A stretch of 64,000 bases of DNA from assembly GCA_947491025.1 (NCBI GenBank), contig CANLIC010000002.1, positions 128,285 to 192,284 of the forward strand. The letters are read 5' to 3'. Source of the stretch: Myxococcales bacterium. Lineage in GTDB: Bacteria > Myxococcota_A > UBA9042. Below the pieces are notes generated by a model. That model saw only the letters and a program-made list of their open reading frames with translations, was not told the DNA's origin and ran no database searches. This document shows positions 17,616 to 30,287 of this stretch, one piece after another (position 1 is the stretch's first letter; each line of letters opens with the position of its first letter). The position numbers and the translations under genes are program-made.

Positions 17616-17642
17616 CCGCTTTCGTGGAGTTTGGCAGCCCAT

Positions 17643-17669
17643 CGCTGCGATCTTGACGGATCGACAGCG
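17643..17669. terminator. Candidate hairpin between convergent nth and fibre gene A
   Basis: CGCTGCGATC-ttgacg-GATCGACAGCG forms a 10-bp stem with a one-base bulge. There is no U-tract, so this is weak. Confidence 0.3.
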
Positions 17670-17720
17670 GAGTGCGAGGTGAGTCGGGGCCCAACTCAGC
17701 GGGCGCGGCAAGGCTTCAGA

Positions 17721-19781
17721 CTACTTGTAGTTGGCCTGGTACCACACTTCCATCTCAACCGTGCTCCAGTTGTACGACCCGCAGATGTCGTTTCGGCACG
17801 CGGTGGTGCCGTAGCCGCTCCAACCGTTGTCGCCGTCCACGACCTTGCGGCAGTCATAGTCGTGGCCGAGGTTGCAGTACCCGGTGGCCATGTCGTTGCT
17901 GTTGAAACAGAAGTCGTGCCCGCCGCCGAAGCAGGGCCCGTAGTTGGTGTGGTTGTAGATCGAGTAGCCGTGCGAGAACGTGTTCTGGTGGCCGTGGTAG
18001 AAGTTCTTCTTCACGTACTTGTGGCCATTGTCGAGGTTGAACAAGAACGAACCTTGGCAGTGGCGCGTGTACTCGTTGTAGTTGGCGGTCCACGGGCACG
18101 AGGCGTAGCCGCCGACACGGGCGCCTGTGTTCAGCTTGGCCACGACGACGGTCGGGCCCTTGTTGTTGCAGTTGTTGTGGAAGGCGCCAGCGCTCTTGCC
18201 CTCAGACCAGCGGTGGCAGAGCTTCCACTGCATCGCCGAGTTGCCGAACATCTCATTGATCATCCGACCGTCCGCGGCGGTGACGACCTTGGAGCCGAGG
18301 AACGGGTGCGCGAACGTGATCGGCATCCAGCCGTCGGGCGTGCACAGCTCGACGACACCGCCCTGGTAGCGCATGGTGCCGGCGTTGTTGCTGTCGCAGG
18401 TCACCGCCGATGGGCCAAGGCCAAGGCCAGCCCCCACCCACAGCGTACCGCCCGCGGTGCCGTGGCCATTCTCTTTGCCCCACGCCTTGCCGCCGACGTA
18501 GAGATCGCCGGCGAGATTGACCTTCTTGTTGCTCAGCGTCTTGATCTTGACGTGCCACTTGACGATGGTGCCGTCGACCTTGTTGGCCGGATCGCAGATG
18601 CCAGCGTTGCCCGGCGCCTGGACGATGCAGAACGCCGTGTCGAGGGCCTTGAGGTTCCACAGACCCTTGGGGTTGGCGCCGATCCACTTCAAGAGGTCGC
18701 CGCTCTTCGGCTTGTTCTGGCTGTTGAAGGTGACCTTGTAGTCCTTCTTGTCCTTCTCCCCACAAGGATCGCAGAGCACCCAGCCGGTCTTCTTGTCGTC
18801 GGGCGGAAGGACGGTGAGCGAGAGGGTCGAGAGGTCGGTGTTGGAGACTTCGACGTAGATCTCAAAGTCCTGCGTGGTGCCAATGTCCGGGAAGTCCAGC
18901 GTCGCGTTGGCCTCAGAGCCGGTGTTGTCCGGGATCTTGATGCCGGACTGGCCGACGATGACGTCGTCAAACTGGTTGCTCAGCAGGTTGTTCGAGATCT
19001 CGTTGAGGCCGTCCTTCGGCAGCGCCGCCGGGTCGAGCGACGCCACGCACTTCAGGCTGCCGTCGGCGTTGATGCCCTTGACCACCTCACCAGCGACCTT
19101 GCACTCGCCAGCCGGCGTCTTCAGGCCCGTCAGCTTGCTGCCGTCGCCGACGAACTCCGCCGCCGCCACCGTGCCCGAGAACGTGCCGTTCTTGGCCTTG
19201 AACGAGTTGCCGGCGAGGTCGACATCGCCGTCGAACTTCAGATCGCTGACGTTGACGCAGCCGCTGCACTCGACGTCAGCTGCCGCGCCACCCTTGGTCG
19301 CGGAGCCGGCATAGTTGAAGCCCACCTTCGCCGCCGCCACGCCACCGTTGGCGAGGTGGTCGGAGCCGATGCAACCCACGCAGCTCACCTTGCCGGCCTC
19401 GGTGGCCACCAGCGCCATCAGCGACCCGTGCAGGCGCTGCCGGGGCAGCTCGGGATCGCTAGCCACCTTCATACCGAGCCACTGCTCCTTGAGCGCCGCC
19501 ACCTTGGCGAGGTCGAGCGGCGTCGCGGAGCCGAGGGCGTGGCTGAAGCGGCCACCGGTCACCTTGACCTTCGCCGTCTCCGTCCACGTCGCAGTGCCGC
19601 CGCTGTTGGCTTCGTAGATGGCGAAGGCGACGTCATAGTCACCGTCCGCCGCCGCCGAGCCGCCGGAGCTGAGCAGGGCGCCGTCGATGAGGGAGGTGGT
19701 CGGCAGTGCGGCGAGGGCCGGCGCGGCCCAAAGAAGTGCCGCCATGAGGGTCGCCCGAAGGCCAGCGCTGAGGGTTCGCAT
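17721..19781 (-). CDS. Secreted fibre-like protein A: conserved stalk, P-domain-like module and TLDc-like C-terminal head
   Basis: Start set at the ATG at 19781 (MRTLSAGLRATLMAALLWAAPALA|ALPTTSL) after GGAG. It has CxGC motifs, FVGDGSKLTG and a proprotein-convertase P-domain-like block (IPDNTG...TDLSTLSLTVLPP...GLWNLKALD...GTIVKWHVKI). The C-terminus reads WKLCHRWSEGKSAGAFHNNCNNKGPTVVVAKL...GGYASCPW...GSFLFNL...GPCFGGGHDFCF. Confidence 0.8.
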   Translation of the reverse strand: MRTLSAGLRATLMAALLWAAPALAALPTTSLIDGALLSSGGSAAADGDYDVAFAIYEANSGGTATWTETAKVKVTGGRFSHALGSATPLDLAKVAALKEQWLGMKVASDPELPRQRLHGSLMALVATEAGKVSCVGCIGSDHLANGGVAAAKVGFNYAGSATKGGAAADVECSGCVNVSDLKFDGDVDLAGNSFKAKNGTFSGTVAAAEFVGDGSKLTGLKTPAGECKVAGEVVKGINADGSLKCVASLDPAALPKDGLNEISNNLLSNQFDDVIVGQSGIKIPDNTGSEANATLDFPDIGTTQDFEIYVEVSNTDLSTLSLTVLPPDDKKTGWVLCDPCGEKDKKDYKVTFNSQNKPKSGDLLKWIGANPKGLWNLKALDTAFCIVQAPGNAGICDPANKVDGTIVKWHVKIKTLSNKKVNLAGDLYVGGKAWGKENGHGTAGGTLWVGAGLGLGPSAVTCDSNNAGTMRYQGGVVELCTPDGWMPITFAHPFLGSKVVTAADGRMINEMFGNSAMQWKLCHRWSEGKSAGAFHNNCNNKGPTVVVAKLNTGARVGGYASCPWTANYNEYTRHCQGSFLFNLDNGHKYVKKNFYHGHQNTFSHGYSIYNHTNYGPCFGGGHDFCFNSNDMATGYCNLGHDYDCRKVVDGDNGWSGYGTTACRNDICGSYNWSTVEMEVWYQANYK

Positions 19782-19854
19782 GGTCCCAATCTCCAACTTG
19801 AGCCGGAGGTCCGCTCAAGTGCGTCCGCGGACTGCTGCGGCTCGCGAAGCTTCG

Positions 19855-21804
19855 CTACTTCGACAGCGGTCCGACGTAGTGAATCTGGTAGCGGCTGTGG
19901 TGCCCGTTCGCATTCCAGCTGTGGAACGGGTAAGGGTTGCAGCTGCCCGAGTAGTACTGAACGTAGAACGAGTCACCCGCCTTGAGCGGCCACACCTGGT
20001 CGACCTGAATGTGATGCCAGCTGGCGTCGTGGTTGTGCTCGTGAGTGTAGTAGCGGCTCGTGCCGTTGATGATGAGCTGCACGTGCTTGTGGCCGCAGCC
20101 ATGCGAGATGCCCCAGCTGTGGATGCGGTAGTAGCCAGAGATCTTCACCTTGACCGTCGCGCCGCCGTCGATCGTCAAGTAGTCCTGCGCGGTGTTCCAC
20201 TCGGTGGCATTGGTGCAGTAGTCGTACCAACCGGAGTGACCCGCCGGCTGGTTGGTACAACCGCCAGACCACATCACCGGCACCGAGGTTGCAGGGCGCC
20301 AGACGTAGCCAGCGACCTTGTCCGCGTTGTCGATGTTGGCGTCACAGACCTGCATGCCGAGCTTGGTGTCCCAACGAAGCGTGCCCACCGCGGCGGCGTC
20401 GCACGTCGGCTTGGCGTCCGCAAGCTTCACGTAGGCGTTGGCAATGTGGAGCTGGCCACCGGGATTGCCGTGGCCGTTGTCCTTGCCCCAGAGCTTGCCG
20501 GCGATGTAGACGTCACCGTTGAGGTTCACCTTCTTGCTCGACAAGGTCTTGATCTTGATGTGCCACTTCACGATGGATCCGTCGGTTTTCGCGGCGACAT
20601 CGCAGATCGCGGCGTTGCCCGGCGCCTGAACGAGGCAGAAGGCGGTGTCGAGGGCCTTGAGGTTCCAGACGCCCTTCGGGTTGGCGCCGATCCACTTCAG
20701 CAGATCGCCGCTGGCCGGCTTGTTCTGGCTGTTGAAGGTCACCTTGTAGGTCTTCTCGTCCTTCTTGCCGCAGGGGTCGCAGAGCTTCCAGCCGGTCTTC
20801 TTGTCGTCCGGCGGCAGCACGGTCAGCGCGAGCGTAGACAGGTCCGTGTTGGCCACCTCGACGTAGAGCTCGAAGTCCTGGCTGAGGCCGATGTCCGGGA
20901 AGTCCAGGGTTGCGTTGGCGTCGGCGCCCGTGTTGTCGGGGATCTTGACGCCAGCGGCGCCGGCGATGGTGTCCTCGAACTGGTTGCTCAACAGATCGTT
21001 CGAGATCTCGTTGAGGCCGTCCTTCGGCAGCGCCGCCGGGTCGAGCGACGCCACGCACTTGAGCGAGCCGTCGGCGTTGATGCCCTTGACCACCTCGCCA
21101 GCGACCTTGCACTCGCCGGCGGGTGTGGCGATGCCGGTGAGCTTGCTGCCGTCGCCGACGAACGCGGCCGCGGTGACGTTCTTGGCCGTCACATCGCCGC
21201 TGAAGGTGCCGTTCTTGGCCTTGAGCGAGTTGCCGCCGAGATCGACATCGCCGTCGAAGCTGAGCTCGGCGACGCCGACGCAGCCGGTGCAATCGAGGTC
21301 GGCCGCCGCGCCGCCCTTGGTCGCAGCGCCGGCGTAGTTGAAGCCCACCTTGGCGGCGGCGATGCTACCATTGGCGACGTGGTTCGAGCCCACGCAGCCG
21401 TCGCAGGTCACCGACAGCGCCGTGTTGGCGACGAGGCTGGTCAGCGCAGCGTGCACGGCCTGGCGGGGAAGCTCCGGGTCGTTGCCGACCTTGACGCCTA
21501 GGAAGTGCCCGGCCAGCGGCAGGAGCTTCGAGAGGTCGATGGGCTTCACGCTGCCGAGGGCGTGGGTGAAGCGGCCCCCGGCGACCTTGATCTTCGCCGT
21601 CTCCGACCAAGCAGCGTTGCCGCCCTGGATCTCCGCGTAGATCGCGAAGGTCACGTCGTAGTCGCCGTCCGCCGCCGGCGAGCCGCCGGTGGAGGTCAGG
21701 ACGCCGTCGACAAGGGAGGTCGTCGGCAGCGCTGCGAGGGCCATTGCCGGCGCCAACGTGAGCGCCAGGGTCAGCAGATGCATGATCGGACTTGAGCGTC
21801 GCAT
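19855..21804 (-). CDS. Secreted fibre-like protein B: conserved stalk, P-domain-like module and C1q/TNF-like C-terminal head
   Basis: Start set at the ATG at 21804 (MRRSSPIMHLLTLALTLAPAMALA|ALPTTSL) after GGAAGGAGA. The stalk is about 90% identical to C at nucleotide level by eye. The C-terminus reads ISGYYRIHSW...HVQLIINGTS...LKAGDSFYVQYY...SRYQIHYVG. Confidence 0.8.
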   Translation of the reverse strand: MRRSSPIMHLLTLALTLAPAMALAALPTTSLVDGVLTSTGGSPAADGDYDVTFAIYAEIQGGNAAWSETAKIKVAGGRFTHALGSVKPIDLSKLLPLAGHFLGVKVGNDPELPRQAVHAALTSLVANTALSVTCDGCVGSNHVANGSIAAAKVGFNYAGAATKGGAAADLDCTGCVGVAELSFDGDVDLGGNSLKAKNGTFSGDVTAKNVTAAAFVGDGSKLTGIATPAGECKVAGEVVKGINADGSLKCVASLDPAALPKDGLNEISNDLLSNQFEDTIAGAAGVKIPDNTGADANATLDFPDIGLSQDFELYVEVANTDLSTLALTVLPPDDKKTGWKLCDPCGKKDEKTYKVTFNSQNKPASGDLLKWIGANPKGVWNLKALDTAFCLVQAPGNAAICDVAAKTDGSIVKWHIKIKTLSSKKVNLNGDVYIAGKLWGKDNGHGNPGGQLHIANAYVKLADAKPTCDAAAVGTLRWDTKLGMQVCDANIDNADKVAGYVWRPATSVPVMWSGGCTNQPAGHSGWYDYCTNATEWNTAQDYLTIDGGATVKVKISGYYRIHSWGISHGCGHKHVQLIINGTSRYYTHEHNHDASWHHIQVDQVWPLKAGDSFYVQYYSGSCNPYPFHSWNANGHHSRYQIHYVGPLSK

Positions 21805-21842
21805 GAGAGTTCTCCTTCCTGCTTGGAATGTCGCGCTGCGGC

Positions 21843-23810
21843 TTAGAACGTGGGCGTCTTGTTCTCGTGCCAGCGTCCGGTGTACTCGATCTGCAGGCGG
21901 CTGTGCGCCGTGCCCGTGTCCCAGTGGTGCCAACGGTGTGGGTTGCAGCCGTCACCGTGGGCCTGGATCTGCACGACGTCACCAGCGCGGAGCGGCCATT
22001 GCAGGTCGGCGTAGTGGCTCGACCAGTTGTGGTTCTCGACGTCGTTGTTGTGGAAGTAGGCGCGCTGGGCCCCGTTGATGAATAGACGCAGATGCTTGCT
22101 GCCGCAACCATACTGGATCGTAAAGAAGTTGAAGCGATAGACGCCGCTCTTCTTGATGGTGACATTGCCTGCACCGGCGTCGCTGATGGTGAGATAGTCG
22201 TCGGCGGTGGTGTAGTCGACCCCGTCGAGGCAGTAGGCGGCCCAGCCGTTCTGACCTGCGGGGTGCGTCTTGCAGCCGCCCGACCACATGACCTTGCGCG
22301 GCACCGCGACGAACCATCCGTGGGTCAGCGTGCCGGCCTTGTCATACTGCTGGTCGCAGACCTGCATGCCGTAAACCGCGTCCCAGCGCATCGTGCCCAC
22401 GCCCTTGGCATCGCAGGTCGGGGTGTCGGACGCCAGCTTGATGTTGGCGTTGGCGATGTGCAGCGCGCCGCCATCGTTGCCGTGGCCGTTGTCCTTGCCC
22501 CAGAGCTTGCCGGCGATGTAAACGTCGCCGTTCAGGTTCACCTTCTTGCTCGACAGCGTCTTGATCCTGATGTGCCACTTGACGATCGAGCCGTCGGTCT
22601 TGGCGGCGACATCGCAGATGGCCGCGTTCCCGGGCGCCTGAACGAGGCAGAACGCGGTGTCGATCGCCTTGAGGTTCCAGGTGCCCTTCGGGTTGCCGCC
22701 GATCCACTTCAGCAGGTCGCCGCTCAAGGGCTTGTTTGCGCTATTGAAGGTCACCTTGTAGGCCTTCTCGTCCTTCTTGCCGCACGGATCGCAGAGCTTC
22801 CAGCCGGTCTTCTTGTCATCTGGCGGCAGAACGGTGAGCGCGAGCGTCGACAGGTCGGTGTTGGCGACCTCGACGTAGAGCTCGAAGTCCTGGCTGACGC
22901 CGATGTCCGGGAAGTCCATGGTCGCGTTGGCCTCTGCGCCCGTGTTGTCCGGAATCTTGACGCCGGCGGCACCCGCGATGGTGTCCTGGAACTGGTTGCT
23001 CAACAGATCGTTCGAGATCTCGTTGAGGCCGTCCTTCGGCAGTGCGCTCGGATCGAGCGCCGCGACGCACTTCAGCGAGCCATCGGCGTTGATGCCCTTG
23101 ACCACCTCCCCGGCGACCTTGCACTCGCCGGCCGGCGTGTTGATGCCGGTCAGCTTGCTGCCGTCGCCGACGAATGCGGCCGCCGTGACGTTCTTGGCCG
23201 TCACGTCGCCGCTGAAGGTGCCGTTCTTGGCCTTGAGCGAGTTGCCGCCGAGGTCGACGTCGCCGTCGAAGCTGAGCTCAGCGACCCCGACGCAGCCGGT
23301 GCAATCGAGGTCCGCGGCCGCGCCACCCTTGGTCGCGGCGCCCGCGTAGTTGAAGCCCACCTTGGCGGCGGCGATGCTGCCATTGGCGACGTGGTTCGAG
23401 CCCACGCAACCGTCGCAGGTCACCGAGAGCGCCGTGTTGGCGACGAGGCTGGTCAGCGCCGCGTGGATGGCCTGACGCGGTAGCTCCGGGTCGCTGCCGA
23501 CCTTGACGCTGAGGAAGTGGCCGTTGAGCGGCAGCAGCTTGCTGAGGTCAATAGGCTTGGCGCTGCCGAGCGCGTGCGTGAAGCGACCCCCGGCGACCTT
23601 TACCTTGGCCGTCTCGGACCAGGCGGCGTTGCCACCTTGGATCTCGCCGTAGATGGCGAAGGCCACGTCGTATTCGCCGTCCGCTGCCGGCGAGCCGCCG
23701 GTGGACGTTAGGACGCCGTCGACGAGCGAGGTCGTCGGCAGCGCCGCGCCCGCCGTCAGGGGCAGTCCCATTGCCGCCACCACGCTCACAAACCAGGTCT
23801 TGATACGCAT
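21843..23810 (-). CDS. Secreted fibre-like protein C: conserved stalk, P-domain-like module and a divergent C1q/TNF-like C-terminal head
   Basis: Start set at the ATG at 23810 (MRIKTWFVSVVAAMGLPLTAGA|ALPTTSL) after GGAGTGA. The C-terminus reads KSGVYRFNFF...HLRLFINGAQ...LRAGDVVQIQAHG...SRLQIEYTG. Confidence 0.8.
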   Translation of the reverse strand: MRIKTWFVSVVAAMGLPLTAGAALPTTSLVDGVLTSTGGSPAADGEYDVAFAIYGEIQGGNAAWSETAKVKVAGGRFTHALGSAKPIDLSKLLPLNGHFLSVKVGSDPELPRQAIHAALTSLVANTALSVTCDGCVGSNHVANGSIAAAKVGFNYAGAATKGGAAADLDCTGCVGVAELSFDGDVDLGGNSLKAKNGTFSGDVTAKNVTAAAFVGDGSKLTGINTPAGECKVAGEVVKGINADGSLKCVAALDPSALPKDGLNEISNDLLSNQFQDTIAGAAGVKIPDNTGAEANATMDFPDIGVSQDFELYVEVANTDLSTLALTVLPPDDKKTGWKLCDPCGKKDEKAYKVTFNSANKPLSGDLLKWIGGNPKGTWNLKAIDTAFCLVQAPGNAAICDVAAKTDGSIVKWHIRIKTLSSKKVNLNGDVYIAGKLWGKDNGHGNDGGALHIANANIKLASDTPTCDAKGVGTMRWDAVYGMQVCDQQYDKAGTLTHGWFVAVPRKVMWSGGCKTHPAGQNGWAAYCLDGVDYTTADDYLTISDAGAGNVTIKKSGVYRFNFFTIQYGCGSKHLRLFINGAQRAYFHNNDVENHNWSSHYADLQWPLRAGDVVQIQAHGDGCNPHRWHHWDTGTAHSRLQIEYTGRWHENKTPTF

Positions 23811-23899
23811 CGCGTCACTCCATGGAAGCCCAACGAACCGCTGGCTTCGCCTCTGTCCACTCGGGGTGCGAGCGACACCGCTCGTCCCGACCCTCTTGG

Positions 23900-23950
23900 G
23901 CGCTGCAGCTCTTCTGCAGCGCGAGTCCAGCAGCGACGACGCCGCTGGAC
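23900..23950 (-). terminator. Two perfect hairpins immediately downstream of the giant Cys-rich gene (candidate terminator or attenuator)
   Basis: GCGCTGCAG-ctctt-CTGCAGCGC lies at 23900-23922. GTCCAGC-(12 nt)-GCTGGAC lies at 23925-23950. They begin 9 nt after the TAG at 23959-23961. No U-tract follows. Confidence 0.35.
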
Positions 23951-23958
23951 TGCCACAC

Positions 23959-26900
23959 CTACTTGCCGAGCAGCGAAAGGACCCAGCCGAAGAAGCCGAA
24001 GTCCGCGCTGTTCTTAGCATCTTGCGGCGCTGGGGCCTTGCCCGCCACGTTGCTCATGCCGATCTGTGCCTGCATGCCGAACTTGTCGCCCTTGCTCGAG
24101 AGCGAGCCGTTGCCGTGCCGCGCCACGAACGCCGTCGGGGCGCAGCCCTCGTCGGTGATACCGTCGCAGTCGTTGTCCTTGCCGTCGCAGAGCTCCTCGG
24201 TCGGGCCCTTGTCGCCCTTGCAGACGCCCAAGGAGCCGTCGGCCTGGCAGAGCTTGACGCCGTCCTTGCACTCGCCCTTGCCGCGTGTCTTGGCGTCGTG
24301 GCTGTAGCAGGCATCCGAGAGGTTGGTGTTGACGACGTTGGCGCAGCCCTTGCTGGTGCTGCAGCTGTCCTCCGTGCAGACATTGCCGTCCTCGCAGGTC
24401 AGCGTCTTGCCCGCGATGCAAACCCACGCGCCGCTGGCGTTCTTGCCGCAGTTGTCGCCCGAGGTGCAGGCGTTGTCGTCGCTGCAGGACTGAATGAGCT
24501 CCTTGAAGCCGCACTTGCCGGTGGTCGTGTCGCAGCTATCGGAGGTGCACGGATTCTTGTCGTCGCAGGTGGTCTGCTTGCCCGCCACGCACTTGCCGGA
24601 CTGGCAGGCGTCGCCCGCGGTGCAGGCGTCGTCGTCGGCGTTGCAGTCCCCGCCCTGCGCGGTGTGGACGCAGCCCAGCTTGGGATCGCAGGAGTCGGCG
24701 GTGCAGGCATTCTTGTCGTCGCAGACCAAGAGCTTGCCGGGCTTGCAAGCGCCGGCGGCGCACGCGTCCTGCGTGGTGCACAGCGACTCATCTGCGTCAC
24801 AGGAGGCGCCGTCGGTTTTGAGCGTTGCGACGCACTTGCCGAGCTTCACGTCGCAGTCGGTCTTCTTGCAGAAGTTGTCCGAAGACGTGTCGCAAGCGAT
24901 CACGGTCACGGGGTTGATCTTGCACTGCTTGTCTTTGTCGCAGAAGAGCGTGCCGTTGCAAGCGTTGCCGTCTTCTTTGCCGGCGCAGTCGAGGTCCTTC
25001 TCGCAGCCGCAGGTGTTGGCGCCGCCCTTGCACTTGCCCTGGACGCAGGCGTCGTTCTGCGTGCAGCTGTTGCCGTCGTCGCAGGTCTTGCCGTCGAGGA
25101 CCTTGTTGAGGCAGCCGGACTTGCTGTCGCAGACGTCGAGCGTGCAGTCGTTGCCGTCGTCGCACTTGACCTTGTCGTTGAACGGCGCGCCCTTGCAGAT
25201 GCCGCCCTGGCAGGCGTCGAGCTCCGTGCAGGCGTCGTCGTCATTGCAGGGGCCCGACAGCGGCGTCGCGACACATCCGGCCTTGGGATCGCAGGCGTCC
25301 GACGTGCAGGTGCTCTTGTCGTCGCAGGTCAGGAGCGGACCGGGCTTGCAGATGCCGTCGGTGCAGGCGTCGGTGGTGGTGCAGACGTTGTCGTCGGCCT
25401 TGCACGGCGTGCCGTCCTTCTCTTTGCTGATGCCGCACTTGCCCGAGGTCGGGTTGCAGGCGTTCTGCTGGCAGGTTGAGTTCAGCGAGGTGTCGCAGTT
25501 GACGACGGTGCCGGGGTTGACCTTGCACTGGAAGGGCTGCGCGGACTTGTCGCAGTACAGCGTGCCGTTGCAGAGGTTGCCGTCTTCTTTGCTGGCGCAG
25601 TCGATGTCGGCGTTGCAGCCGCAGGTGTTGACGCCGGCAGCGCACTTGCCGTCCTTGCAGAAGTCATTCTTGGTGCAAGCGTTGCCGTCGTCGCAGATCG
25701 CGACATCGTCTGCGTTGTGGACGCAGCCCTTCTCGGCGTCGCAGACGTCGGTGGTGCAGGGGTTTCCGTCGTCGCACTTGACCTTGACGTCGATGGGCTG
25801 GCCGGCGCACTTACCCTTGGCGCAGCTGTCGCCGGCGGTGCAAGCGTTGCCATCCTCGCAGTTGGCGCCGTCGCCGACGGACGAGAAGATGCACCCCTTG
25901 ACCGCGTCGCACTGGTCGGTGGTGCAGGGATTCTTGTCATTGCAGTCCAGGTTCTTGCCACCCACGCAGGTGTAGAGCTTGGTGGTCGGTTCGACCCCGC
26001 AGGCGTCGTCGGTCGTGCAGAGGTTGGCGTCGTCGCACTTGTCGACGCGCGGCTTGTTGGCGCACTTGCCCGTCGCCTTCTCGCACAGATCGTCGGTGCA
26101 GAACTCCTTGTCGTCACAGTCCTTGCCCTTGCCGGGGACGCAGGTGCCGCTGGCGCAGACGTCGAGGACGGTGCAGGAGTCGCCGTCGGCGTCGCAGGGC
26201 GTGGTGTTCGGTTTGAACGAGCAGCCGTTCTTTGCGTCGCAGGCGTCGTCTGTGCAGGGGTTCTTGTCGTCGCAGCCAACGAGCGCGCCAGTCTGGCAGG
26301 TGCCGGCCTTGCACTGATCGTCCTTGGTGCACACCGAGCTATCCGAGTCGCAGGGCTTGCCGTCGGTCGCTTGGGTGATCGCGCACTTGCCGGTGGACGC
26401 GTTGCAGGCGTTCTGCTGGCACTCGCCGTTCAGGCTGGTGTCGCAGGCGACCACGGTGGTCGGCTTGACTTTGCACTGGAAGGGCTTGGCGCTGATGTCG
26501 CAGAAGAGCGTGCCGTTGCACAGGTTGCCGTCTTCCTTGGTCGCGCAGTCCTTGTCCGCCTCGCAGCCGCAGTTGTTGGGGCCTGAGATGCACTTGCCGT
26601 TCTGACAGGCGTCGTTGAGCGTGCAGACGTTGCCGTCGTCGCAGGGGCCGGCGATTTTGGGCGTGTGGACGCAGCCGGCCTTGGCCTCGCAGCTGTCGGT
26701 GGTGCAGGCGTCGTTGTCGTTGCAGCTTGCGGTGACATCGATCGCGATGCCGACGCACTTGCCGGCTTCGCAGTTGTCCTTCTGGGTGCAGGAGTCGGCG
26801 TCGTTGCAGGGGCCCGCGGCGGCCTTGTGGAGGCAGCCCGTCGCCGGATCGCAGCTGTCGGCGGTGCATGGGCTGCCGTCGTCGCAGTTCACCGCGCCGC

Positions 26901-28245
26901 CCTTGCAGGTCTCTTGGGCGCACAGCTCATTGGACGTGCAGGGGTTGCCGTCGTTGCAGGGCTGACCGTTCTTGTTGTTGTACGTGCACTTGCCGTCTGC
27001 CAGGTTGCACTTGCCGAGCATGCAGGTGTCGCCGGAGTCGCAGGCCTTGGCGCTGCCGGCGAGGCAGGTGCCGTCCTTGCACTGGTCGGCGACCGTGCAG
27101 GGGTTGTCGTCGGCGTTACAGGGATCGCCGCTGGCCGGCGCGGTCTGGCAGCCGAGCTTGGCGTCGCAACTGTCGTTGGTGCAGGGATTGGCGTCGTTGC
27201 AGGCCTTGGCCGCGCCAGCCTTGCACTTGCCGGCGTCGCAGCTGTCGTTCTCGGTGCAGATCGAGCCGTCGGCATCGCAGGGTGCGCCGGTGTTGGCGTT
27301 GTGCGTGCAGCCCTTGTCGCCACTACAGGCGTCGGTGGTACAGGGGTTTCCGTCGTCGCAGGTGCCGTCGTCGGTCTTGCCGTTGCAGTCGTTGTCGACG
27401 CCGTCGCAAGTCTCGGTGGAGGCCTTGGGGGCGTCGCAGGCGGTCAGGCCGCCACCGTCAGGGGCGCCAGGCGCGCCGGCAGGCAGACAGGTCCGGCTGC
27501 CAGCGCACGTGCCGCCGTTGCTGTGGGGCACGTGGCAGGTGGTGGTCGCGCCCGCGGCGATGGCGCCCGGCGAGCACGCGCAAACTTCATTCGGCGGCAT
27601 CACGCAGTACTTCGCGGACTTGCCGGTGATGTCGGTGGCGGTCTCGCAGAGGGCCCCTTGCGGGCAGTCGACGGTGCTGTTGCAGCTGTTGCCGCAGAAT
27701 GAACCGTCGTTGCCACGCTTGATGCACGCGGCGTTGAGGGCGCCGGCGGCGCCGCAGCTGTCGTTGGTCGTGCAAGGGGCGCAGTGGGTGGCGAATTTGG
27801 GGACGCAGACCTTGTCTACCGCGCTGCCCGTGCCCGCGATCTCGACGCAGGTCTCACCCTCAGGACAAGCGCCGTCGTCGCACTTCTGAGCGCAGACTTT
27901 GGTGGCCTTGCCGGCCTGGATGCAGTGGCCAGAGTAGCAGCCGTCGTCCGCCTTGCACTCGCAGCCGGGGCCGCCAGGGCAGGAAAGGGAGACCTCCGCG
28001 CCGTCCACGGCGGTGTCGCTTTCGACGGTGTCGACGCCGACGGTGTCACCCGCCACGTCGCTGCCTTCGCCGACATCGCCCGCCGTGACGTCGGTGCCGC
28101 CGGTGCTGGTTTCCTCGCCTTCCACCGTGGTGTCGCCGTCGCCGCAGCCGATGGCCAGGACTGCGAGAAATGTGAACGCAACGACCAGCCGAAGGGGCTG
28201 TGGCGCTGTGCACGCGCCAAGCTGCAAACGCAGGAAGTCGTTCAT
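23959..28245 (-). CDS. Giant Cys-rich repeat lipoprotein (1428 aa; CTDC-like CDDGNxCTxDxC repeats, two CDGxDNDC(D/N)G motifs)
   Basis: Lipobox FLAVLAIGC, then an acidic linker, then roughly 13% Cys by hand count. It has three super-repeats, each opening with CGC(E/N)xDxDCAxKEDGNxCNGTLxCD. Its C-terminus reads ELCDGKDNDCDGITDEGC...ADFGFFGWVLSLLGK. Confidence 0.85.
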   Translation of the reverse strand: MNDFLRLQLGACTAPQPLRLVVAFTFLAVLAIGCGDGDTTVEGEETSTGGTDVTAGDVGEGSDVAGDTVGVDTVESDTAVDGAEVSLSCPGGPGCECKADDGCYSGHCIQAGKATKVCAQKCDDGACPEGETCVEIAGTGSAVDKVCVPKFATHCAPCTTNDSCGAAGALNAACIKRGNDGSFCGNSCNSTVDCPQGALCETATDITGKSAKYCVMPPNEVCACSPGAIAAGATTTCHVPHSNGGTCAGSRTCLPAGAPGAPDGGGLTACDAPKASTETCDGVDNDCNGKTDDGTCDDGNPCTTDACSGDKGCTHNANTGAPCDADGSICTENDSCDAGKCKAGAAKACNDANPCTNDSCDAKLGCQTAPASGDPCNADDNPCTVADQCKDGTCLAGSAKACDSGDTCMLGKCNLADGKCTYNNKNGQPCNDGNPCTSNELCAQETCKGGAVNCDDGSPCTADSCDPATGCLHKAAAGPCNDADSCTQKDNCEAGKCVGIAIDVTASCNDNDACTTDSCEAKAGCVHTPKIAGPCDDGNVCTLNDACQNGKCISGPNNCGCEADKDCATKEDGNLCNGTLFCDISAKPFQCKVKPTTVVACDTSLNGECQQNACNASTGKCAITQATDGKPCDSDSSVCTKDDQCKAGTCQTGALVGCDDKNPCTDDACDAKNGCSFKPNTTPCDADGDSCTVLDVCASGTCVPGKGKDCDDKEFCTDDLCEKATGKCANKPRVDKCDDANLCTTDDACGVEPTTKLYTCVGGKNLDCNDKNPCTTDQCDAVKGCIFSSVGDGANCEDGNACTAGDSCAKGKCAGQPIDVKVKCDDGNPCTTDVCDAEKGCVHNADDVAICDDGNACTKNDFCKDGKCAAGVNTCGCNADIDCASKEDGNLCNGTLYCDKSAQPFQCKVNPGTVVNCDTSLNSTCQQNACNPTSGKCGISKEKDGTPCKADDNVCTTTDACTDGICKPGPLLTCDDKSTCTSDACDPKAGCVATPLSGPCNDDDACTELDACQGGICKGAPFNDKVKCDDGNDCTLDVCDSKSGCLNKVLDGKTCDDGNSCTQNDACVQGKCKGGANTCGCEKDLDCAGKEDGNACNGTLFCDKDKQCKINPVTVIACDTSSDNFCKKTDCDVKLGKCVATLKTDGASCDADESLCTTQDACAAGACKPGKLLVCDDKNACTADSCDPKLGCVHTAQGGDCNADDDACTAGDACQSGKCVAGKQTTCDDKNPCTSDSCDTTTGKCGFKELIQSCSDDNACTSGDNCGKNASGAWVCIAGKTLTCEDGNVCTEDSCSTSKGCANVVNTNLSDACYSHDAKTRGKGECKDGVKLCQADGSLGVCKGDKGPTEELCDGKDNDCDGITDEGCAPTAFVARHGNGSLSSKGDKFGMQAQIGMSNVAGKAPAPQDAKNSADFGFFGWVLSLLGK

Positions 28246-28318
28246 GTTCCCCCCTCAGAGCCGTGGTCACGCGCGTTGGGGCGAGCGCTAGCGTGCGATG
28301 TGCGCCTGTGGCGGGGCT

Positions 28319-28387
28319 TCCCACCGCAGTCGCTTTTGGTCTCCCACCGCAGGACGGATCATGCCCATCCCCCAGGATCGCCGTCAA
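28319..28387 (-). promoter_or_regulatory. Candidate promoter plus an 11-nt direct repeat upstream of the giant Cys-rich gene
   Basis: The minus strand has TTGACG (28387-28382), an 18-nt spacer and CATGAT (28363-28358). It also has two perfect copies of CTGCGGTGGGA (plus-strand TCCCACCGCAG at 28319-28329 and 28342-28352), spaced 23 nt start to start. Confidence 0.3.
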
Positions 28388-28457
28388 GAGCCGCCGCCGC
28401 AGTGGGTGCATGGGTGGGCGGGTCGGTTGAGCGCCGTAGGGCGTCCTGCGTGGGAAT

Positions 28458-30251
28458 CTACTTGCACACTGGCGATGAGACGCCCGTGGTGTGGCAGGTC
28501 TTGCCGACCTCGCAGAGGACGTTCGACATGGCCTCCCAGGGGCCGTAGCCCTTCACGGAGGAGCTGCACTTGCTCTCGTGGTCGCCGGTGCAGCCGTAGC
28601 CGACCTTGCGGACATGGCCCTGATTGTCTTCGCACTTGTACTCGACACTCTTGCTGTCGGAGTAGCAGAGAGTGCCCTTGGGTAGCATCTCTTGGGCGCC
28701 GACATCGCAACAGACGCCCTTGCTGCAGCACAGCGGGTTGGGGGCGATGGCGCAGGTGCCGTCACCTTTGCAGACAGCCTTCTGGCAAGGGCCTGGCTGG
28801 ACCTGGGTGGCGCACTCCGCGTCTGCCTTGCAGCAGAAGGCCGTGGTCGCTTTGCCCTGGCAGACCAGCTGGCTCGTGCACGCGTCCTCCTTGGTGCAGT
28901 TGTTGCTGTCGTCGCAGGCCTTGCCGATGTTGGCCTTCCACTGGGTCGGTGTCGCAGGATCGCAGACCTCGCAGCCGCCGGAGTTGGGCTTGCTGGCGCC
29001 CTTGGCGACACAGGCCCCGGCGATGAGGCAGGTGTCTGCAGCGACGGTGAAGGCTGAGGTCGACTTCTCGGGCTGGCAGGTGGCGCAGGCTCCGGCCGGA
29101 CTGACCGCACCCTTGTCGTAGCAGGCGCCGTCGACCGCGCAGGTTCCGGGCTTGCCGCTCCAGGCGGTCTGGCTCTGCGCCGCGTCGCAGACCTGGCAGG
29201 ACCCTGCCTGGCCGCTGGAACCGGTCGCGATGCAGGCGCCATCGATGTGGCACTGGCCGCTGAGGATCGTCCAGGCGTCCTTGCTGCTCTGGGGCTGGCA
29301 GGTCCGGCATTCCTGATCCGCCGCGCTGGCCTTGGCGCCCGCGGCGATGCACTCGCCGTCGATGAAGCATTTGTTGGGTTCTGGGCTCCACGCCTTGGGC
29401 TCGACGTCTGGCTTGCAGCGCTGGCAGCCACCCGTACCTGGCTTGGCGTCGCCGGCCTTCCAGCAACCACCGTCGATGTGGCAGCTCGACGCGGAGAGCT
29501 TGTGCTGGCAGGCGCCGCCTTTGGGATCGCAGCTGTCGATGGTGCAGTCGACGCCATCGTCGCAGGGCTTGGGCTGGATGCTGCAGGTGCCGTCGATGCA
29601 CTTGGCGAAAGCGCAGACGCCGTCGCCGCCGGCACACGCAGCGTCGGAGGTGCAGCAACCGGCGAAAGGCAGGTTCATGCAGAGCTTCTGCGCCCCCTTC
29701 TGCTGGCAGCTGTCGGTGGTGCACGGGTCTCCATCGTCGCAGTCTGCGCTCGCCTGGCAGGCGCATGCGCCGAGGTAGCCGCCGTCGCCGCCGCAACAAG
29801 CGTCGCTGCTGCCGAGGCAGCCGTGGTGGCAGTGGCAGGCGTTGTCCTCGAGAAAGAGGCCGCAGGAACCGGCACAATCGACGATCGGCGGGGGCGGGCC
29901 AGCGTCGGCAGCGCCGGTATCACCAGCGGCTGTATCTGGCGCTGGCCTGGCGTCGGGGTCGGTGTCGGGATCGGCGCTGGCGTCGCTCTCGCCCTTGGCC
30001 TCTGCGGGGTCGGCGACGTCTGCGCCGGTTGGGTCGGTCGCCCCATCAGCGTCGTCGGTGCCAAAGGTAAAGCCCCCGCTGTCGGCGTCCTGCGTGCTGG
30101 GAAGCCCCAGGGCTTCGTCCTTGTCGCTTGCGTCCTCATCGGCGCCGCAGCCGGACGCGACCGCGAGCCAAAGAAGCAGCGGCGCGAGGCGTCGAGACCT
30201 GCCCCAGTCGGGCACCACCGCCGTCTGGCTGTTCACCGGAATTGTCCGCAT
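28458..30251 (-). CDS. Cys-rich secreted lipoprotein (597 aa), paralog of the 1..1862 gene
   Basis: Start set at the ATG at 30251 (MRTIPVNS...LLLWLAVASGC lipobox). The track start at 30962 adds 237 implausible Arg-rich residues. It has an acidic linker, then DCAGSCGLFLEDNACHCHHGCLGSSDACC, CTDC-like units, five repeats of about 38 aa (CxIDGxC...CxxCxP...W) and a C-terminal GVCCD...EYKC...GCTG module. Confidence 0.8.
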   Translation of the reverse strand: MRTIPVNSQTAVVPDWGRSRRLAPLLLWLAVASGCGADEDASDKDEALGLPSTQDADSGGFTFGTDDADGATDPTGADVADPAEAKGESDASADPDTDPDARPAPDTAAGDTGAADAGPPPPIVDCAGSCGLFLEDNACHCHHGCLGSSDACCGGDGGYLGACACQASADCDDGDPCTTDSCQQKGAQKLCMNLPFAGCCTSDAACAGGDGVCAFAKCIDGTCSIQPKPCDDGVDCTIDSCDPKGGACQHKLSASSCHIDGGCWKAGDAKPGTGGCQRCKPDVEPKAWSPEPNKCFIDGECIAAGAKASAADQECRTCQPQSSKDAWTILSGQCHIDGACIATGSSGQAGSCQVCDAAQSQTAWSGKPGTCAVDGACYDKGAVSPAGACATCQPEKSTSAFTVAADTCLIAGACVAKGASKPNSGGCEVCDPATPTQWKANIGKACDDSNNCTKEDACTSQLVCQGKATTAFCCKADAECATQVQPGPCQKAVCKGDGTCAIAPNPLCCSKGVCCDVGAQEMLPKGTLCYSDSKSVEYKCEDNQGHVRKVGYGCTGDHESKCSSSVKGYGPWEAMSNVLCEVGKTCHTTGVSSPVCK

Positions 30252-30287
30252 GCTCGCCTCTAGCCCCGCGCGGGGCGATCGCGGGCA

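What the first reader, a model, noticed from the sequence alone, without database searches (positions are those of the whole stretch)
17721..30251. Five-gene island encoding only secreted, Cys-rich or fibre proteins: candidate cell-surface recognition module
Five genes lie on one strand from 30251 down to 17721. In order they are a 597-aa Cys-rich lipoprotein, a 1428-aa Cys-rich lipoprotein and the three fibre paralogs. They are bracketed by housekeeping genes (nth; a HupE-like gene and valS). Every product has a signal peptide or lipobox. None has a recognisable enzyme, transporter or regulator domain. Two perfect hairpins after the giant gene (23900-23950) suggest at least two transcription units, the lipoprotein genes and the C-B-A fibre operon. 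A paralog of the 597-aa protein sits at the left window edge (1..1862), so the family extends beyond this island. The combination of giant disulfide-rich surface scaffolds and interchangeable lectin-like tips suggests a dedicated surface adhesion or recognition apparatus. This linkage is inference from co-location only.
Basis: inference. Interest (0 to 1): 0.7.

Follow-up and report, generated by a model that had tools for sequence, protein, structure and literature searches.

The report
Swappable-head surface fibres with lipoprotein partner
An uncultured myxobacterium carries three secreted fibre proteins that share one stalk but have different binding heads, next to a giant cysteine-rich lipoprotein that accompanies such fibre genes at several unrelated places in related genomes; it resembles the prey-recognition fibres of Bdellovibrio and offers a candidate for their unknown cell-surface partner.

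Summary
Five co-directional genes lie between nth and a HupE-like gene plus valS. They encode two Cys-rich lipoproteins (S, 597 aa; G, 1428 aa with 13 Dicty_CTDC repeats) and three paralogous secreted fibres (C, B, A).

Each fibre has a Sec signal peptide, a ~100-aa beta-rich N-domain, a Cys-containing stalk that does not fold as a monomer, a furin/Kex2-type P-domain and a variable head. The head is C1q/TNF-like in B and C and TLDc in A.

The fibres belong to an unnamed family of about 300 clusters at 50% identity. It occurs in Myxococcota metagenome-assembled genomes (MAGs), at 15 or more loci in the best-sampled ones. The heads are swapped among C1q-like, COLFI/fibrinogen-like, CTHRC1_C, TLDc, laminin-G and unknown types.

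It sits within 0-165 bp of fibre genes, on the same strand, in three unrelated genomic contexts. S is confined to one context, and about three quarters of fibre loci have no such neighbour.

Best reading: a fibre repertoire like the Bdellovibrio mosaic adhesive trimers (MAT), with G as a partner and possibly the anchor. Surface exposure, trimerisation and ligands are untested. This is a new variant of a known kind.

The parts
28458..30251 (-). S: 597-aa Cys-rich predicted lipoprotein. It has lipobox VASG|C, an acidic Asp/Gly/Thr/Pro-rich linker, a somatomedin-B-like Cys module, two weak CTDC repeats, five ~38-aa 'C-x-[IV]-[DA]-G-x-C' repeats and a Cys-rich C-terminal domain shared with the left-edge paralogue.
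   Evidence: (Dicty_CTDC 26.7 bits, cut-off 27). Orthologues occur only in the valS...nth context.
28358..28387 (-). The only sigma-70-like promoter match in 17000-31000 (TTGACG, 18-nt spacer, CATGAT). It lies in the 212-bp S-G spacer, about 110 nt upstream of the G start codon.
   Evidence: 1 site found, 0.5 expected. This is a consensus match only.
23959..28245 (-). G: 1428-aa predicted lipoprotein with 13% Cys. It has lipobox LAIG|C, an acidic linker, 13 Dicty_CTDC matches organised in three ~200-320-aa super-repeats (starting at residues 559, 875 and 1079), and two MopE-like CDGxDNDC motifs (residues 280 and 1353).
   Evidence: (Dicty_CTDC 150 bits, 13 stretches).
23962..24141 (-). Conserved C-terminal tail of G (last ~60 aa): C-APT-x-F-x-AR-x-GN ... 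FGF[FY]xW[LVI]xxLLGK-COOH. It defines the fibre-linked subfamily of CTDC lipoproteins.
   Evidence: It is present in 19 non-duplicate G-like genes, all within 165 bp of a fibre gene. It is absent from G-like genes that lie further away in the same fetched flanks.
23861..23951 (-). Three stem-loops in the 148-bp G-C spacer (23951-23924, 23922-23900, 23890-23861). None is followed by a U-tract.
   Evidence: z = -3.77. Hairpin 1 is kept through compensatory changes in the closest relative L006. They are absent where the spacer is 14-43 bp.
21843..23810 (-). Fibre C (655 aa). Residues 1-22 are the signal peptide, 25-120 the N-domain, 122-215 a stalk with two CxGC motifs, 230-250 a disulfide hairpin, 270-420 the P-domain, and 470-650 the C1q/TNF-like head (nt 21846-22403).
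   Evidence: pLDDT above 85 for the N-domain, P-domain and most of the head, with dips to 71-79; below 50 for the stalk; C1QL1/C1QL3, target TM 0.8, E = 4e-8; Kex2/furin P-domain, E = 1.6e-6.
19855..21804 (-). Fibre B (649 aa). It has the same architecture as C. The stalk is 88-100% identical to C. The head is C1q-like but only 45% identical to that of C.
   Evidence: head against head, E = 1e-50, 45% identity.
17721..19781 (-). Fibre A (686 aa). It has the same base and stalk (54-89% identical to C) and a TLDc head (residues 498-680, nt 17742-18290).
   Evidence: TLD, 1.4e-14, 54.9 bits; PEP_CTERM_TLD_A, below cut-off.
3..1862 (-). Paralogue of S (lipobox FVSA|C), cut off by the window edge. 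It has no fibre neighbour.
   Evidence: (E = 1e-22).

Best explanation
The locus encodes part of a repertoire of secreted modular recognition fibres, together with a cell-envelope lipoprotein that works with them.

Shown:
- A, B and C are Sec-exported proteins built as N-domain, Cys-containing stalk, P-domain beta-sandwich, neck and exchangeable globular head. The head is a C1q/TNF jelly roll in B and C and TLDc in A.
- They belong to a large family in uncultured Myxococcota in which one conserved base carries at least ten different head types, at many paralogous loci per genome.
- G is the prototype of a CTDC-repeat lipoprotein subfamily marked by a conserved C-terminal tail. That subfamily is repeatedly encoded directly beside fibre genes, on the same strand, at unrelated chromosomal sites.

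Inferred:
- The fibres are trimers. The C1q, COLFI and CTHRC1 heads found in the family are all trimer-forming heads of collagen-like proteins in animals, and the stalk does not fold as a monomer.
- The fibres stand on the cell surface with the conserved N-domain proximal and the head distal.
- They bind varied ligands, probably glycans, on other cells or particles, as the mosaic adhesive trimer (MAT) fibres of Bdellovibrio do on prey.
- G is tethered to the outer membrane by its lipid. It acts as the disulfide-stiffened partner of the fibres, most simply as the dock or scaffold that holds the shared N-domain. This would also serve the many fibre paralogues encoded elsewhere.
- S is a locus-specific Cys-rich lipoprotein with no demonstrated tie to the fibres.
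For: - Architecture: the three paralogues share about 455 N-terminal residues and diverge abruptly after that.
- AF2 models: confident N-domain, P-domain and head; stalk pLDDT below 50.
- Folds: the head matches gC1q domains (target TM 0.8, probability 1.0). The middle domain matches Kex2/furin P-domains (E = 1.6e-6), and Pfam P_proprotein hits 47 of 68 family representatives.
- Pfam finds TLDc in A.
- Family: 368 hits in the 90% clusters, all unnamed MAG proteins. 300 clusters at 50% identity reach E <= 1e-30. 417 relatives occur in GTDB species genomes, and the best 80 come from 10 MAGs, with 15 loci each in two of them.
- Head catalogue: C1q-like, COLFI/Fibrinogen_C, CTHRC1_C (9e-41), TLDc, TIG plus Laminin_G_3, DUF4215 and unknown types.
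- Stalk against head: B and C are about 94% identical over residues 24-440 but 45% identical in the head.
- N-domain: hhalign probability 92.8%, E = 4e-7 over 121 columns to the N-domain family that follows the signal peptide in Bacteroidota proteins.
- G linkage: 23 of 34 G-like genes in the fetched flanks lie within 170 bp of a fibre gene, 22 of them on the same strand. All tail-bearing ones do.
- Three unrelated flanking contexts, and no other recurrent neighbour family.
- Reciprocal scan from the tail: a fibre gene directly downstream in L090, L093, L094 and L095.
- G-to-fibre gaps of 14-95 bp in relatives imply co-transcription.
- MAT precedent: conserved N-domain, variable heads including TNF-like ones, many paralogues, surface display, unknown anchor (PMC10769870).
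Against: - There is no experimental or localisation evidence. Every function here is inferred from sequence, predicted fold and gene order.
- Trimerisation was not modelled.
- Homology of the N-domain to Bdellovibrio MAT N-domains was not tested directly, because no Bdellovibrio sequence was available. The link runs through a Bacteroidota family that I retrieved with a probe sequence written from memory.
- MAT stalks are long beta-prisms or beta-helices. These fibres are short (about 650 aa) and contain a P-domain that was not described for MATs.
- About three quarters of the fibre loci lack a tail-bearing G-like neighbour.
- One orthologous locus keeps G with no fibre. Context II has two G-like genes for one fibre. 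The stoichiometry and the direction of dependence are therefore unclear.
- Orthologous synteny inflates the raw adjacency counts. The number of independent contexts is only 3-5.
- Nothing shows how a Sec-exported fibre would cross the outer membrane.
- Whether this lineage is predatory is unknown.
Confidence: 0.55

Rival explanations
1. G-like lipoproteins and fibres are functionally coupled, but G is not the anchor. G could instead be one of three things.
(a) The ligand or counter-receptor on sibling cells that the fibre heads bind. That would make a social or kin-adhesion pair, comparable in logic to TraA, whose stalk is also made of Cys-rich repeats.
(b) A matrix or coat scaffold laid down together with the fibres.
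(c) An assembly or export helper.
For: - The same linkage evidence applies as for the best explanation.
- Context II has two G-like genes around one fibre.
- One locus has G and no fibre.
- These last two fit a free-standing surface scaffold better than a 1:1 dock.
- Myxobacterial TraA uses Cys-rich repeats in a surface recognition receptor (PMC6372800 and PMC3325183, listed).
Against: - Heads vary greatly while the G tail and the fibre N-domain are the conserved elements. A conserved-to-conserved contact is therefore the more economical reading.
- No PA14 domain, MYXO-CTERM or TraA/TraB-like signatures were found by Pfam or NCBIfam.
- Nothing tested here separates options (a) to (c).
Confidence: 0.2
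2. The co-location has no functional meaning. Cys-rich CTDC lipoproteins and fibres are simply two expanded families of secreted proteins in these genomes. They have been inherited side by side at a few loci.
For: - Both families are expanded. G-like genes also occur 0.5-7.5 kb from fibres with no fixed arrangement.
- Most fibres have no such neighbour.
- S is linked only by orthologous synteny.
- Many of the adjacency counts are orthologues of one another.
Against: - The tail-bearing subfamily is always directly adjacent and co-directional. This holds in three contexts with unrelated flanking genes.
- Tail-less G-like genes in the same sampled windows are scattered.
- The reciprocal search from the tail again lands next to fibre genes.
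- Gaps of 14-95 bp indicate operons.
Confidence: 0.12
3. The fibres target eukaryotes rather than bacteria. Heads of the C1q, fibrillar-collagen C-propeptide, fibrinogen, CTHRC1 and TLDc types mimic animal extracellular-matrix or innate-immunity modules. They would mediate attachment to protists, animals or their matrices.
For: - The head catalogue is dominated by domains known mainly from metazoan collagen-like proteins.
- Tail fibres of extracellular contractile injection systems (eCIS) with C1q heads have been read as molecular mimicry of eukaryotic immune and adhesion proteins used to adhere to host cells (PMC12923769).
Against: - The MAGs come from activated sludge, surface water and marine metagenomes rather than from host tissue (record titles).
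- TNF/C1q-like heads in Bdellovibrio MATs bind bacterial glycans (PMC10769870).
- These domains share a trimer-compatible geometry, which alone could explain why they were recruited.
Confidence: 0.1
4. The fibre genes are tail fibres of a prophage, a tailocin or an extracellular contractile injection system.
For: - Weak structural resemblance to phage receptor-binding proteins. The best BFVD match is a 612-aa phage 'Proprotein convertase, P' protein (E = 1.6e-8). Host-specificity J and tail-fibre entries follow.
- C1q heads occur on eCIS fibres, and Myxococcota are enriched in multi-fibre eCIS loci (PMC12923769).
Against: - Every fibre has a cleavable Sec signal peptide, which cytoplasmically assembled tail fibres lack.
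- No sheath, tube, baseplate, capsid or integrase genes were seen. The genes nearest the island and the three Pfam-annotated related loci (L003-L005) are housekeeping or envelope genes.
- PHROGs gave no structural match: nothing for A, G or S, and one family of unknown function on the C head.
- The locus sits between nth and valS in relatives down to 50% fibre identity.
Confidence: 0.03

Closest known systems
Mosaic adhesive trimer (MAT) fibres of Bdellovibrio bacteriovorus (Caulton et al. 2024, PMC10769870)
   Same: - A signal peptide is followed at once by a conserved beta-rich N-domain that has no PDB homologue.
- The C-terminal heads are variable, fold independently and include TNF/C1q-like jelly rolls.
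- There are many paralogues per genome (21 in Bdellovibrio HD100; 15 or more loci here).
- One end is conserved and the other diversified.
- The cell-side partner is unknown.
- That paper already lists one MAT from a 'Myxococcales bacterium'.
   Different: - The proteins are short (about 550-950 aa, against MATs of 626-627 aa up to more than 1,000 aa).
- The stalk has two CxGC motifs and a disulfide hairpin, then a furin-type P-domain, which was not reported in MATs.
- No member seen here has an S74 chaperone-protease domain.
- The head set is different: COLFI/fibrinogen, CTHRC1_C and TLDc.
- A Cys-rich lipoprotein is genetically linked.
- N-domain homology to Bdellovibrio MATs was not tested directly.
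Tail fibres of extracellular contractile injection systems and phage receptor-binding proteins with eukaryote-like heads (PMC12923769)
   Same: Modular fibres in which a conserved attachment end carries exchangeable receptor-binding domains, including C1q. Loci with several fibre genes are common in Myxococcota.
   Different: Those fibres have baseplate-attachment domains, no signal peptide, and lie inside contractile-system operons. The fibres here are Sec substrates in a housekeeping neighbourhood.
Animal collagen-like defence and matrix proteins (C1q/C1QL/cerebellin, ficolins, fibrillar procollagens, CTHRC1)
   Same: The C-terminal globular heads are of the same Pfam or fold classes. The C head superposes on C1QL1/C1QL3 with target TM 0.8 and 21-25% identity. 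In animals these heads sit at the end of a trimeric stalk.
   Different: There are no Gly-X-Y collagen repeats. The stalk is a different, bacterial module. The direction and age of any transfer were not examined.
TraA/TraB outer-membrane-exchange receptor of Myxococcus
   Same: A myxobacterial surface recognition protein with a polymorphic recognition domain on a stalk of Cys-rich repeats.
   Different: TraA is a single polypeptide with a PA14-like head and a MYXO-CTERM tag. G has no head domain, a lipobox at the N-terminus and a different C-terminal tail. NCBIfam and Pfam found no TraA-type signatures.
Dictyostelium CTDC-repeat extracellular matrix proteins (Pfam PF00526)
   Same: G matches the repeat model 13 times (150 bits).
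   Different: G is a bacterial lipoprotein with a specific C-terminal tail and a conserved operon partner. No function is transferable from the eukaryotic proteins.

Membership tests
MAT (mosaic adhesive trimer) fibre superfamily | A Sec signal peptide immediately followed by a conserved beta-rich N-terminal domain of ~100-130 aa | tested here: met
   The signal peptides were read from the translations. Residues 25-120 are predicted as an all-beta domain with pLDDT about 87-95. This domain is conserved across the family.
MAT (mosaic adhesive trimer) fibre superfamily | The N-domain is homologous to that of the 21 Bdellovibrio MATs | not testable with these tools
   No Bdellovibrio MAT sequence could be retrieved, and PDB entries cover only the tips. 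Indirect evidence: hhalign probability 92.8%, E = 4e-7 to a Bacteroidota post-signal-peptide N-domain family. The MAT paper lists Bacteroidota (FCB-group) and Myxococcales MATs. That the two N-domains are the same rests on my recollection.
MAT (mosaic adhesive trimer) fibre superfamily | Trimeric intertwined beta-prism or beta-helix stalk | not testable with these tools
   Only monomer AF2 was available. Stalk residues 122-215 have pLDDT below 50, which is compatible with an obligate oligomer but is no proof. Heads of the C1q, COLFI and CTHRC1 classes are trimeric in animals (established knowledge).
MAT (mosaic adhesive trimer) fibre superfamily | Conserved base with exchangeable, independently folding C-terminal heads, and many paralogues per genome | tested here: met
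   There is a sharp break at about residue 455. The 68 complete fibres fall into 11 head classes, with Pfam classes. Two MAGs have 15 loci each among the best 80 hits.
MAT (mosaic adhesive trimer) fibre superfamily | Displayed on the cell surface and involved in contact with prey | not testable with these tools
   This requires localisation and predation assays in an organism that has not been cultured.
C1q/TNF superfamily head (fibres B and C) | Ten-stranded jelly-roll fold of gC1q | tested here: met
   Foldseek against the PDB finds C1QL1/C1QL3, C1QTNF5, cerebellin, collagen VIII NC1 and C1q heads, with target TM 0.70-0.81 and probability 1.0. By sequence the match is sub-threshold: Pfam C1q scores 14 bits against a 23.7-bit cut-off. 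A related head scores 19.3 bits.
TLDc domain (fibre A head) | Match to Pfam PF07534 above the gathering score | tested here: met
   54.9 bits against a cut-off of 24.5, covering residues 498-680. The NCBIfam PEP_CTERM_TLD_A model scores 75 bits, below its cut-off of 100, and no PEP-CTERM tag is present.
Dicty_CTDC repeat proteins | Repeated match to PF00526 above the gathering score | tested here: met
   G scores 150.2 bits over 13 stretches. S scores 26.7 bits against a 27-bit cut-off, so it is marginal and not formally a member.
Bacterial lipoproteins (G and S) | Signal peptide ending in a lipobox [LVI][ASTVI][GAS]C | tested here: met
   LAIG|C in G and VASG|C in S, read from the sequence. 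The lipobox is conserved in most G-like homologues. No dedicated predictor was available, and lipidation and final location are untested.
eCIS or phage tail fibres | No signal peptide, a baseplate-attachment N-domain, and a position inside a sheath/tube/baseplate operon | tested here: not met
   Signal peptides are present. No contractile-system or phage genes were seen among the genes nearest the island or in the three Pfam-annotated related loci L003-L005. PHROGs gave no structural hit.
TraA-type myxobacterial recognition receptor | PA14-like variable domain, Cys-rich repeats and a MYXO-CTERM sorting tag | tested here: not met
   Pfam and NCBIfam found no PA14, MYXO-CTERM or myxo cysteine-repeat models in G or S at E <= 0.1.

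The most novel reading that the evidence does not exclude
The tail-bearing CTDC lipoprotein (G) is the cell-surface dock for the conserved N-domain of this whole class of mosaic fibres. Its C-terminal ~60-aa tail would be the docking element. If so, this locus identifies the kind of anchor that the Bdellovibrio MAT study left open: a lipid-tethered, disulfide-stiffened mast carrying interchangeable trimeric recognition heads. It would also show that uncultured Myxococcota run a repertoire of 15-20 or more heads built from domains otherwise known as the heads of animal collagen-like defence and matrix proteins.
Probability: 0.25. Interest if true: 0.8.

Novelty: new variant of a known kind. Interest (0 to 1): 0.6.

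Why it matters
Mosaic fibres with exchangeable heads were recently shown to be how Bdellovibrio recognises prey. How such fibres are held on the cell is still unknown, and their diversity outside Bdellovibrio is barely charted.

This locus opens a large, unnamed fibre family in uncultured Myxococcota. It has about 300 clusters at 50% identity and 15 or more loci in the best-sampled genomes.

The heads are C1q-like, fibrillar-collagen or fibrinogen-like, CTHRC1-like, TLDc and others. These classes are mostly known as the trimeric heads of animal innate-immunity and matrix proteins. That bears on where these recognition modules came from and on why they travel together.

The analysis also singles out one conserved genetic partner, a giant disulfide-rich lipoprotein with a diagnostic C-terminal tail. 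This gives a concrete, testable candidate for the fibre's partner on the cell.

If the partner idea is wrong, the finding is still a clean catalogue entry, a new MAT-like subfamily, but no more than that.

Tried and rejected
- Sequence searches of the PDB with C, A and the family profile found nothing useful. The best match was a NEAT-like 'conserved domain protein' at E = 0.05, which I treated as chance.
- PHROGs gave no structural match: nothing for A, G or S, and one family of unknown function on the C head at E = 3.4e-5.
- NCBIfam has no model for B, C, G or S.
- The search with the last 120 aa of G in the 5.8-billion-protein index returned only 2 hits, because short queries share too few words.
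- The first alignment of 19 tails was too diverse for the metagenome scan. A subset of 10 worked.
- Looking up protein C itself found no record. Protein A did: ENA assembly ERZ27280196, contig k141_63851.
- The Pfam scan of 136 representatives exceeded the residue limit and was repeated with 68.
- The first flank clustering merged nearly all loci, because shadow ORFs inside fibre genes were counted as flanking genes. It was redone with those masked.
- The terminator scan found no more sites than in shuffles, and none at the G-C hairpins.
- Rfam and tRNA scans found nothing inside the island.
- Recent horizontal acquisition was considered and rejected, because GC3 stays high and the locus is conserved in divergent relatives.
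- Metal handling with the neighbouring HupE-like gene, via the MopE-like motifs of G, was considered and rejected. HupE is absent from contexts II and III.
- The porin-like gene and the 1360-aa gene beyond nth were considered as partners. They recur only in the orthologous context.

Full report
**What is in the sequence**

The window is about 69% G+C. Between 17721 and 30251 there are five minus-strand genes with the third-position G+C expected of real genes (GC3 0.83-0.91). I fixed their starts from signal sequences that are conserved in homologues.

- S: 28458-30251, 597 aa, 10.9% Cys.
- G: 23959-28245, 1428 aa, 13.0% Cys.
- C: 21843-23810, 655 aa.
- B: 19855-21804, 649 aa.
- A: 17721-19781, 686 aa.

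Endonuclease III (nth) lies at 16857-17615 (+). A HupE/UreJ-type gene lies inside 30288-31691 (+). valS lies at 31749-34409 (-).

G and S carry lipoboxes (LAIG|C and VASG|C), each followed by an acidic low-complexity linker. A, B and C have classical signal peptides ending in AxA. After cleavage they begin with A-[LV]-P-x-T, whose proline is invariant across the family.

The G-C spacer is 148 bp and holds three stem-loops (23951-23924, 23922-23900, 23890-23861). It folds at -79.9 kcal/mol, z = -3.77 against shuffles. None of the stem-loops is followed by a U-tract. A consensus terminator scan finds no more sites in the region than in shuffled sequence.

The left-edge gene (start 1862, lipobox FVSA|C) is a genuine paralogue of S (E = 1e-22).

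**The fibres**

A, B and C share their first ~455 residues and then diverge abruptly.

An AlphaFold2 model of C built on 54 homologues gives these regions:
- a confident beta-rich N-domain (residues 25-120);
- a segment that does not fold as a monomer (122-215, pLDDT below 50), containing two CxGC motifs;
- a small disulfide hairpin;
- a confident beta-sandwich (270-420);
- a mostly confident C-terminal globular domain (470-650).

Foldseek places the C-terminal domain among gC1q/TNF jelly rolls. The matches include C1QL1/C1QL3, C1QTNF5, cerebellin, collagen VIII NC1 and C1q itself, with target TM-scores up to 0.81, E = 4e-8 and 21-25% identity. Pfam sees this only below threshold.

A second model, restricted to residues 24-440, matches the P-domains of Kex2 and furin for the beta-sandwich (E = 1.6e-6). 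Pfam P_proprotein is found in 47 of 68 family representatives. The N-domain found no convincing PDB counterpart.

The head of A is a TLDc domain (54.9 bits against a cut-off of 24.5). The head of B has the same fold class as that of C but is only 45% identical (E = 1e-50). The B and C stalks are 88-100% identical per 50-residue window. This contrast indicates either homogenisation of the stalk or rapid divergence or replacement of the head.

**The family**

C has 368 significant relatives in the 90%-identity protein index. Every one comes from metagenomes or MAGs and is labelled hypothetical. The labels include 'Myxococcales bacterium' and 'Deltaproteobacteria bacterium'. One of these MAGs, HK-STAS-MYXO-50, comes from a study whose MAG names carry the phylum assignment Myxococcota.

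An exhaustive HMMER search of 1.84 billion representatives used residues 24-440 as the query. It gave 300 clusters at E <= 1e-30 and 5281 at E <= 1e-3.

In GTDB species genomes, 417 stretches encode relatives. The best 80 come from only ten MAGs, with 15 loci each in two of them. This is a heavily expanded paralogous family.

Heads are exchanged on a constant base. Among 68 complete fibres in the fetched loci I found 11 head classes:
- C1q-like (25);
- COLFI/fibrinogen-C-like (14);
- TLDc;
- CTHRC1_C (9e-41);
- TIG plus laminin-G;
- several with no Pfam match.

Over 68 representatives of the wider family, COLFI hits 29, Fibrinogen_C 20, DUF4215 7, CTHRC1_C 2 and TLD 2. C1q, COLFI and CTHRC1_C are C-terminal heads of trimeric collagen-like proteins in animals, and fibrinogen-C heads are carried the same way in ficolins (established knowledge). 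Together with the stalk that will not fold alone, this is my reason for inferring a trimer. It was not modelled.

**Relation to known fibres**

The closest described system is the mosaic adhesive trimer (MAT) family of Bdellovibrio (PMC10769870). Its features are:
- a signal peptide followed by a conserved ~130-aa beta-rich N-domain without PDB homologues;
- a trimeric stalk;
- variable heads, including TNF-like domains and a C-type lectin fold;
- 21 paralogues;
- surface display;
- an unknown cell-side binding partner.

The supplement of that paper already lists one MAT from a 'Myxococcales bacterium'.

I could not obtain Bdellovibrio sequences, so N-domain homology could not be tested directly. 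As a substitute I wrote, from memory, the N-domain typical of Bacteroidota tail-fibre-like proteins. I used it only as a probe and retrieved 1063 real proteins, up to 82% identical to the probe. I aligned 24 of them. The comparison with the family profile gave hhalign probability 92.8%, E = 4e-7, over 121 columns running from the signal peptide to the end of the N-domain. This shows that the N-domain belongs to a widespread post-signal-peptide fibre domain. That it is the MAT N-domain is still my inference.

The differences from MATs are real. These proteins are short. They contain a P-domain. None seen has an S74 domain. The head set is different.

Tail fibres of extracellular contractile injection systems (eCIS) also carry C1q heads (PMC12923769). 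However, those lack signal peptides and sit in contractile-system operons. I saw neither feature here. The BFVD search gave only weak resemblance to phage receptor-binding proteins.

**Is the lipoprotein-fibre linkage real?**

*Starting from fibres.* I fetched 85 loci and called ORFs. I marked fibre genes with a family HMM and marked G-like and S-like genes with phmmer plus Cys content.
- Of 34 non-duplicate G-like genes in those flanks, 23 lie within 170 bp of a fibre gene, 22 of them on the same strand. The rest are scattered 0.5-7.6 kb away.
- The adjacent ones share a conserved ~60-aa C-terminal tail that the scattered ones lack: C-APT-x-F-x-AR-x-GN ... FGF[YF]xW[LVI]xxLLGK-COOH.
- I masked fibre and Cys-rich genes and clustered loci by their remaining flanking genes. 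The tail-bearing pairs then fall into three unrelated contexts.
  - Context I: valS-HupE-S-G-fibres-nth (this window, L002, L005 and others).
  - Context II: FAD synthase/shikimate dehydrogenase - G1 - fibre - G2 - pseudouridine synthase/MopE-like protein (L003, L012, L019, L021, L035, L065).
  - Context III: L026 and L046.
- No other gene family recurs beside fibres across contexts.
- G-to-fibre gaps in relatives are 14-95 bp, which implies co-transcription.

*Starting from the tail.* I scanned metagenome contigs with the tail alignment. The scan gave ten loci, two of them duplicates of loci already held and a third (L096) a copy of L095. Of the six new, informative loci:
- four have a fibre gene directly downstream (L090, L093, L094, L095);
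- one is context I with G followed at once by nth and no fibre (L092);
- one is a weak relative without a fibre in 2.9 kb (L097).

*Limits.*
- Orthology inflates the raw counts, so the independent units are 3-5 contexts, not 23 genes.
- About three quarters of the 82 distinct fibre loci have no tail-bearing G-like neighbour, and roughly half have no Cys-rich ORF at all in the flank held.
- Fibre copy number at context I ranges from 0 to 3.
- S occurs only in context I, and its paralogue at the window edge has no fibre beside it. S is therefore not shown to belong with the fibres.

**Mechanism**

*Shown:* export signals, domain architecture, head exchange, family expansion and the G-fibre gene linkage.

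*Inferred:* the fibres are trimers that project from the cell, with the conserved N-domain at the base and a variable binding head at the tip. G is tethered by its lipid and stiffened by about 90 potential disulfides. It is their partner.

The most economical version is that the conserved G tail, or G as a whole, holds the conserved fibre N-domain. A few G-like masts could then serve many fibre paralogues, including the solo ones.

Other roles for G are equally compatible with gene order. It could be a counter-receptor on sibling cells, a co-deposited matrix or an assembly helper. The ligands are unknown. Bacterial surface glycans are the precedent from Bdellovibrio. Eukaryotic targets cannot be excluded, given the head types.

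**Transcription units**

The hairpins are real. Hairpin 1 is retained through compensatory substitutions in the closest relative. A single sigma-70-like match lies in the S-G spacer. More distant orthologous loci have no room for such structures, and there is no U-tract. I therefore cannot tell whether the hairpins terminate, attenuate or stabilise transcripts.

**Verdict**

The finding is real and better than chance. It is not a foreign island and not a fixed five-gene machine. It is one locus of a large, undescribed MAT-like fibre family, with a specific Cys-rich lipoprotein partner. I rate it a new variant of a known kind, with moderate-to-high interest.

Noticed in passing
Fibre loci L001-L085; window 17721-23810: The heads on this bacterial fibre family are largely domains known as C-terminal heads of animal collagen-like proteins: C1q-like, fibrillar-collagen COLFI, fibrinogen-C and CTHRC1_C (9e-41). 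TLDc and laminin-G also occur. Whether this reflects inter-kingdom transfer, and in which direction, was not examined.
   Followed up: partly
window 19855-23810 (genes B and C): The tandem paralogues B and C are 88-100% identical in protein sequence along the stalk, but only about 45% identical in the head, with a sharp break near residue 455. This suggests gene conversion of the stalk or replacement or diversification of the head.
   Followed up: partly
L092:1873-6962: A metagenome contig carries the orthologous locus with a 1439-aa tail-bearing G followed immediately by nth. There is no fibre gene at all. Fibre copy number at this locus therefore ranges from 0 to 3 among relatives.
   Followed up: yes
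L003, L012, L019, L021, L035 (for example L003:6109-14943): A second conserved locus type has one fibre gene sandwiched between two tail-bearing CTDC lipoprotein genes (about 1230-1760 aa and about 950-975 aa). A 1600-1900-aa Cys-rich MopE-like gene lies on the opposite strand next to them.
   Followed up: partly
Proteins P0121-P0240: The Bacteroidota N-domain family retrieved with the probe appears mostly as very short proteins (130-190 aa). Some lie on contigs of 0.2-1 Mb, so they are not all fragments. N-domain-only proteins may exist. One hit also carries collagen repeats (PF01391).
   Followed up: no
window 61753-63999 (+): A large secreted-type protein runs off the right edge of the window. 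It has Big_1/invasin-D3 and glucodextranase-B-like Ig domains and may be another surface adhesin.
   Followed up: no
window 11188-16958 (-): A phosphate-porin-like outer-membrane protein (608 aa) and a 1360-aa protein with a weak CarboxypepD_reg match lie just beyond nth. They are conserved there in context-I relatives only.
   Followed up: partly
window 18000-26000: G+C drops to about 0.65 across the fibre genes and G, against about 0.70 elsewhere. GC3 stays at 0.88-0.91. The dip therefore reflects amino-acid composition (Lys, Asn, Thr, Cys) rather than foreign origin.
   Followed up: yes
window 2359-2431 (-): ARAGORN calls a tRNA-Ala (CGC) that Rfam's gathering-threshold scan does not report. 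It overlaps a high-GC3 ORF at 2053-3243.
   Followed up: no
Record titles of L007, L047, L065 and others: Several MAGs that carry this Myxococcota-type fibre family are titled 'uncultured Enterobacteriaceae bacterium' in their third-party (TPA) assembly records. This looks like a placeholder or mislabel.
   Followed up: no
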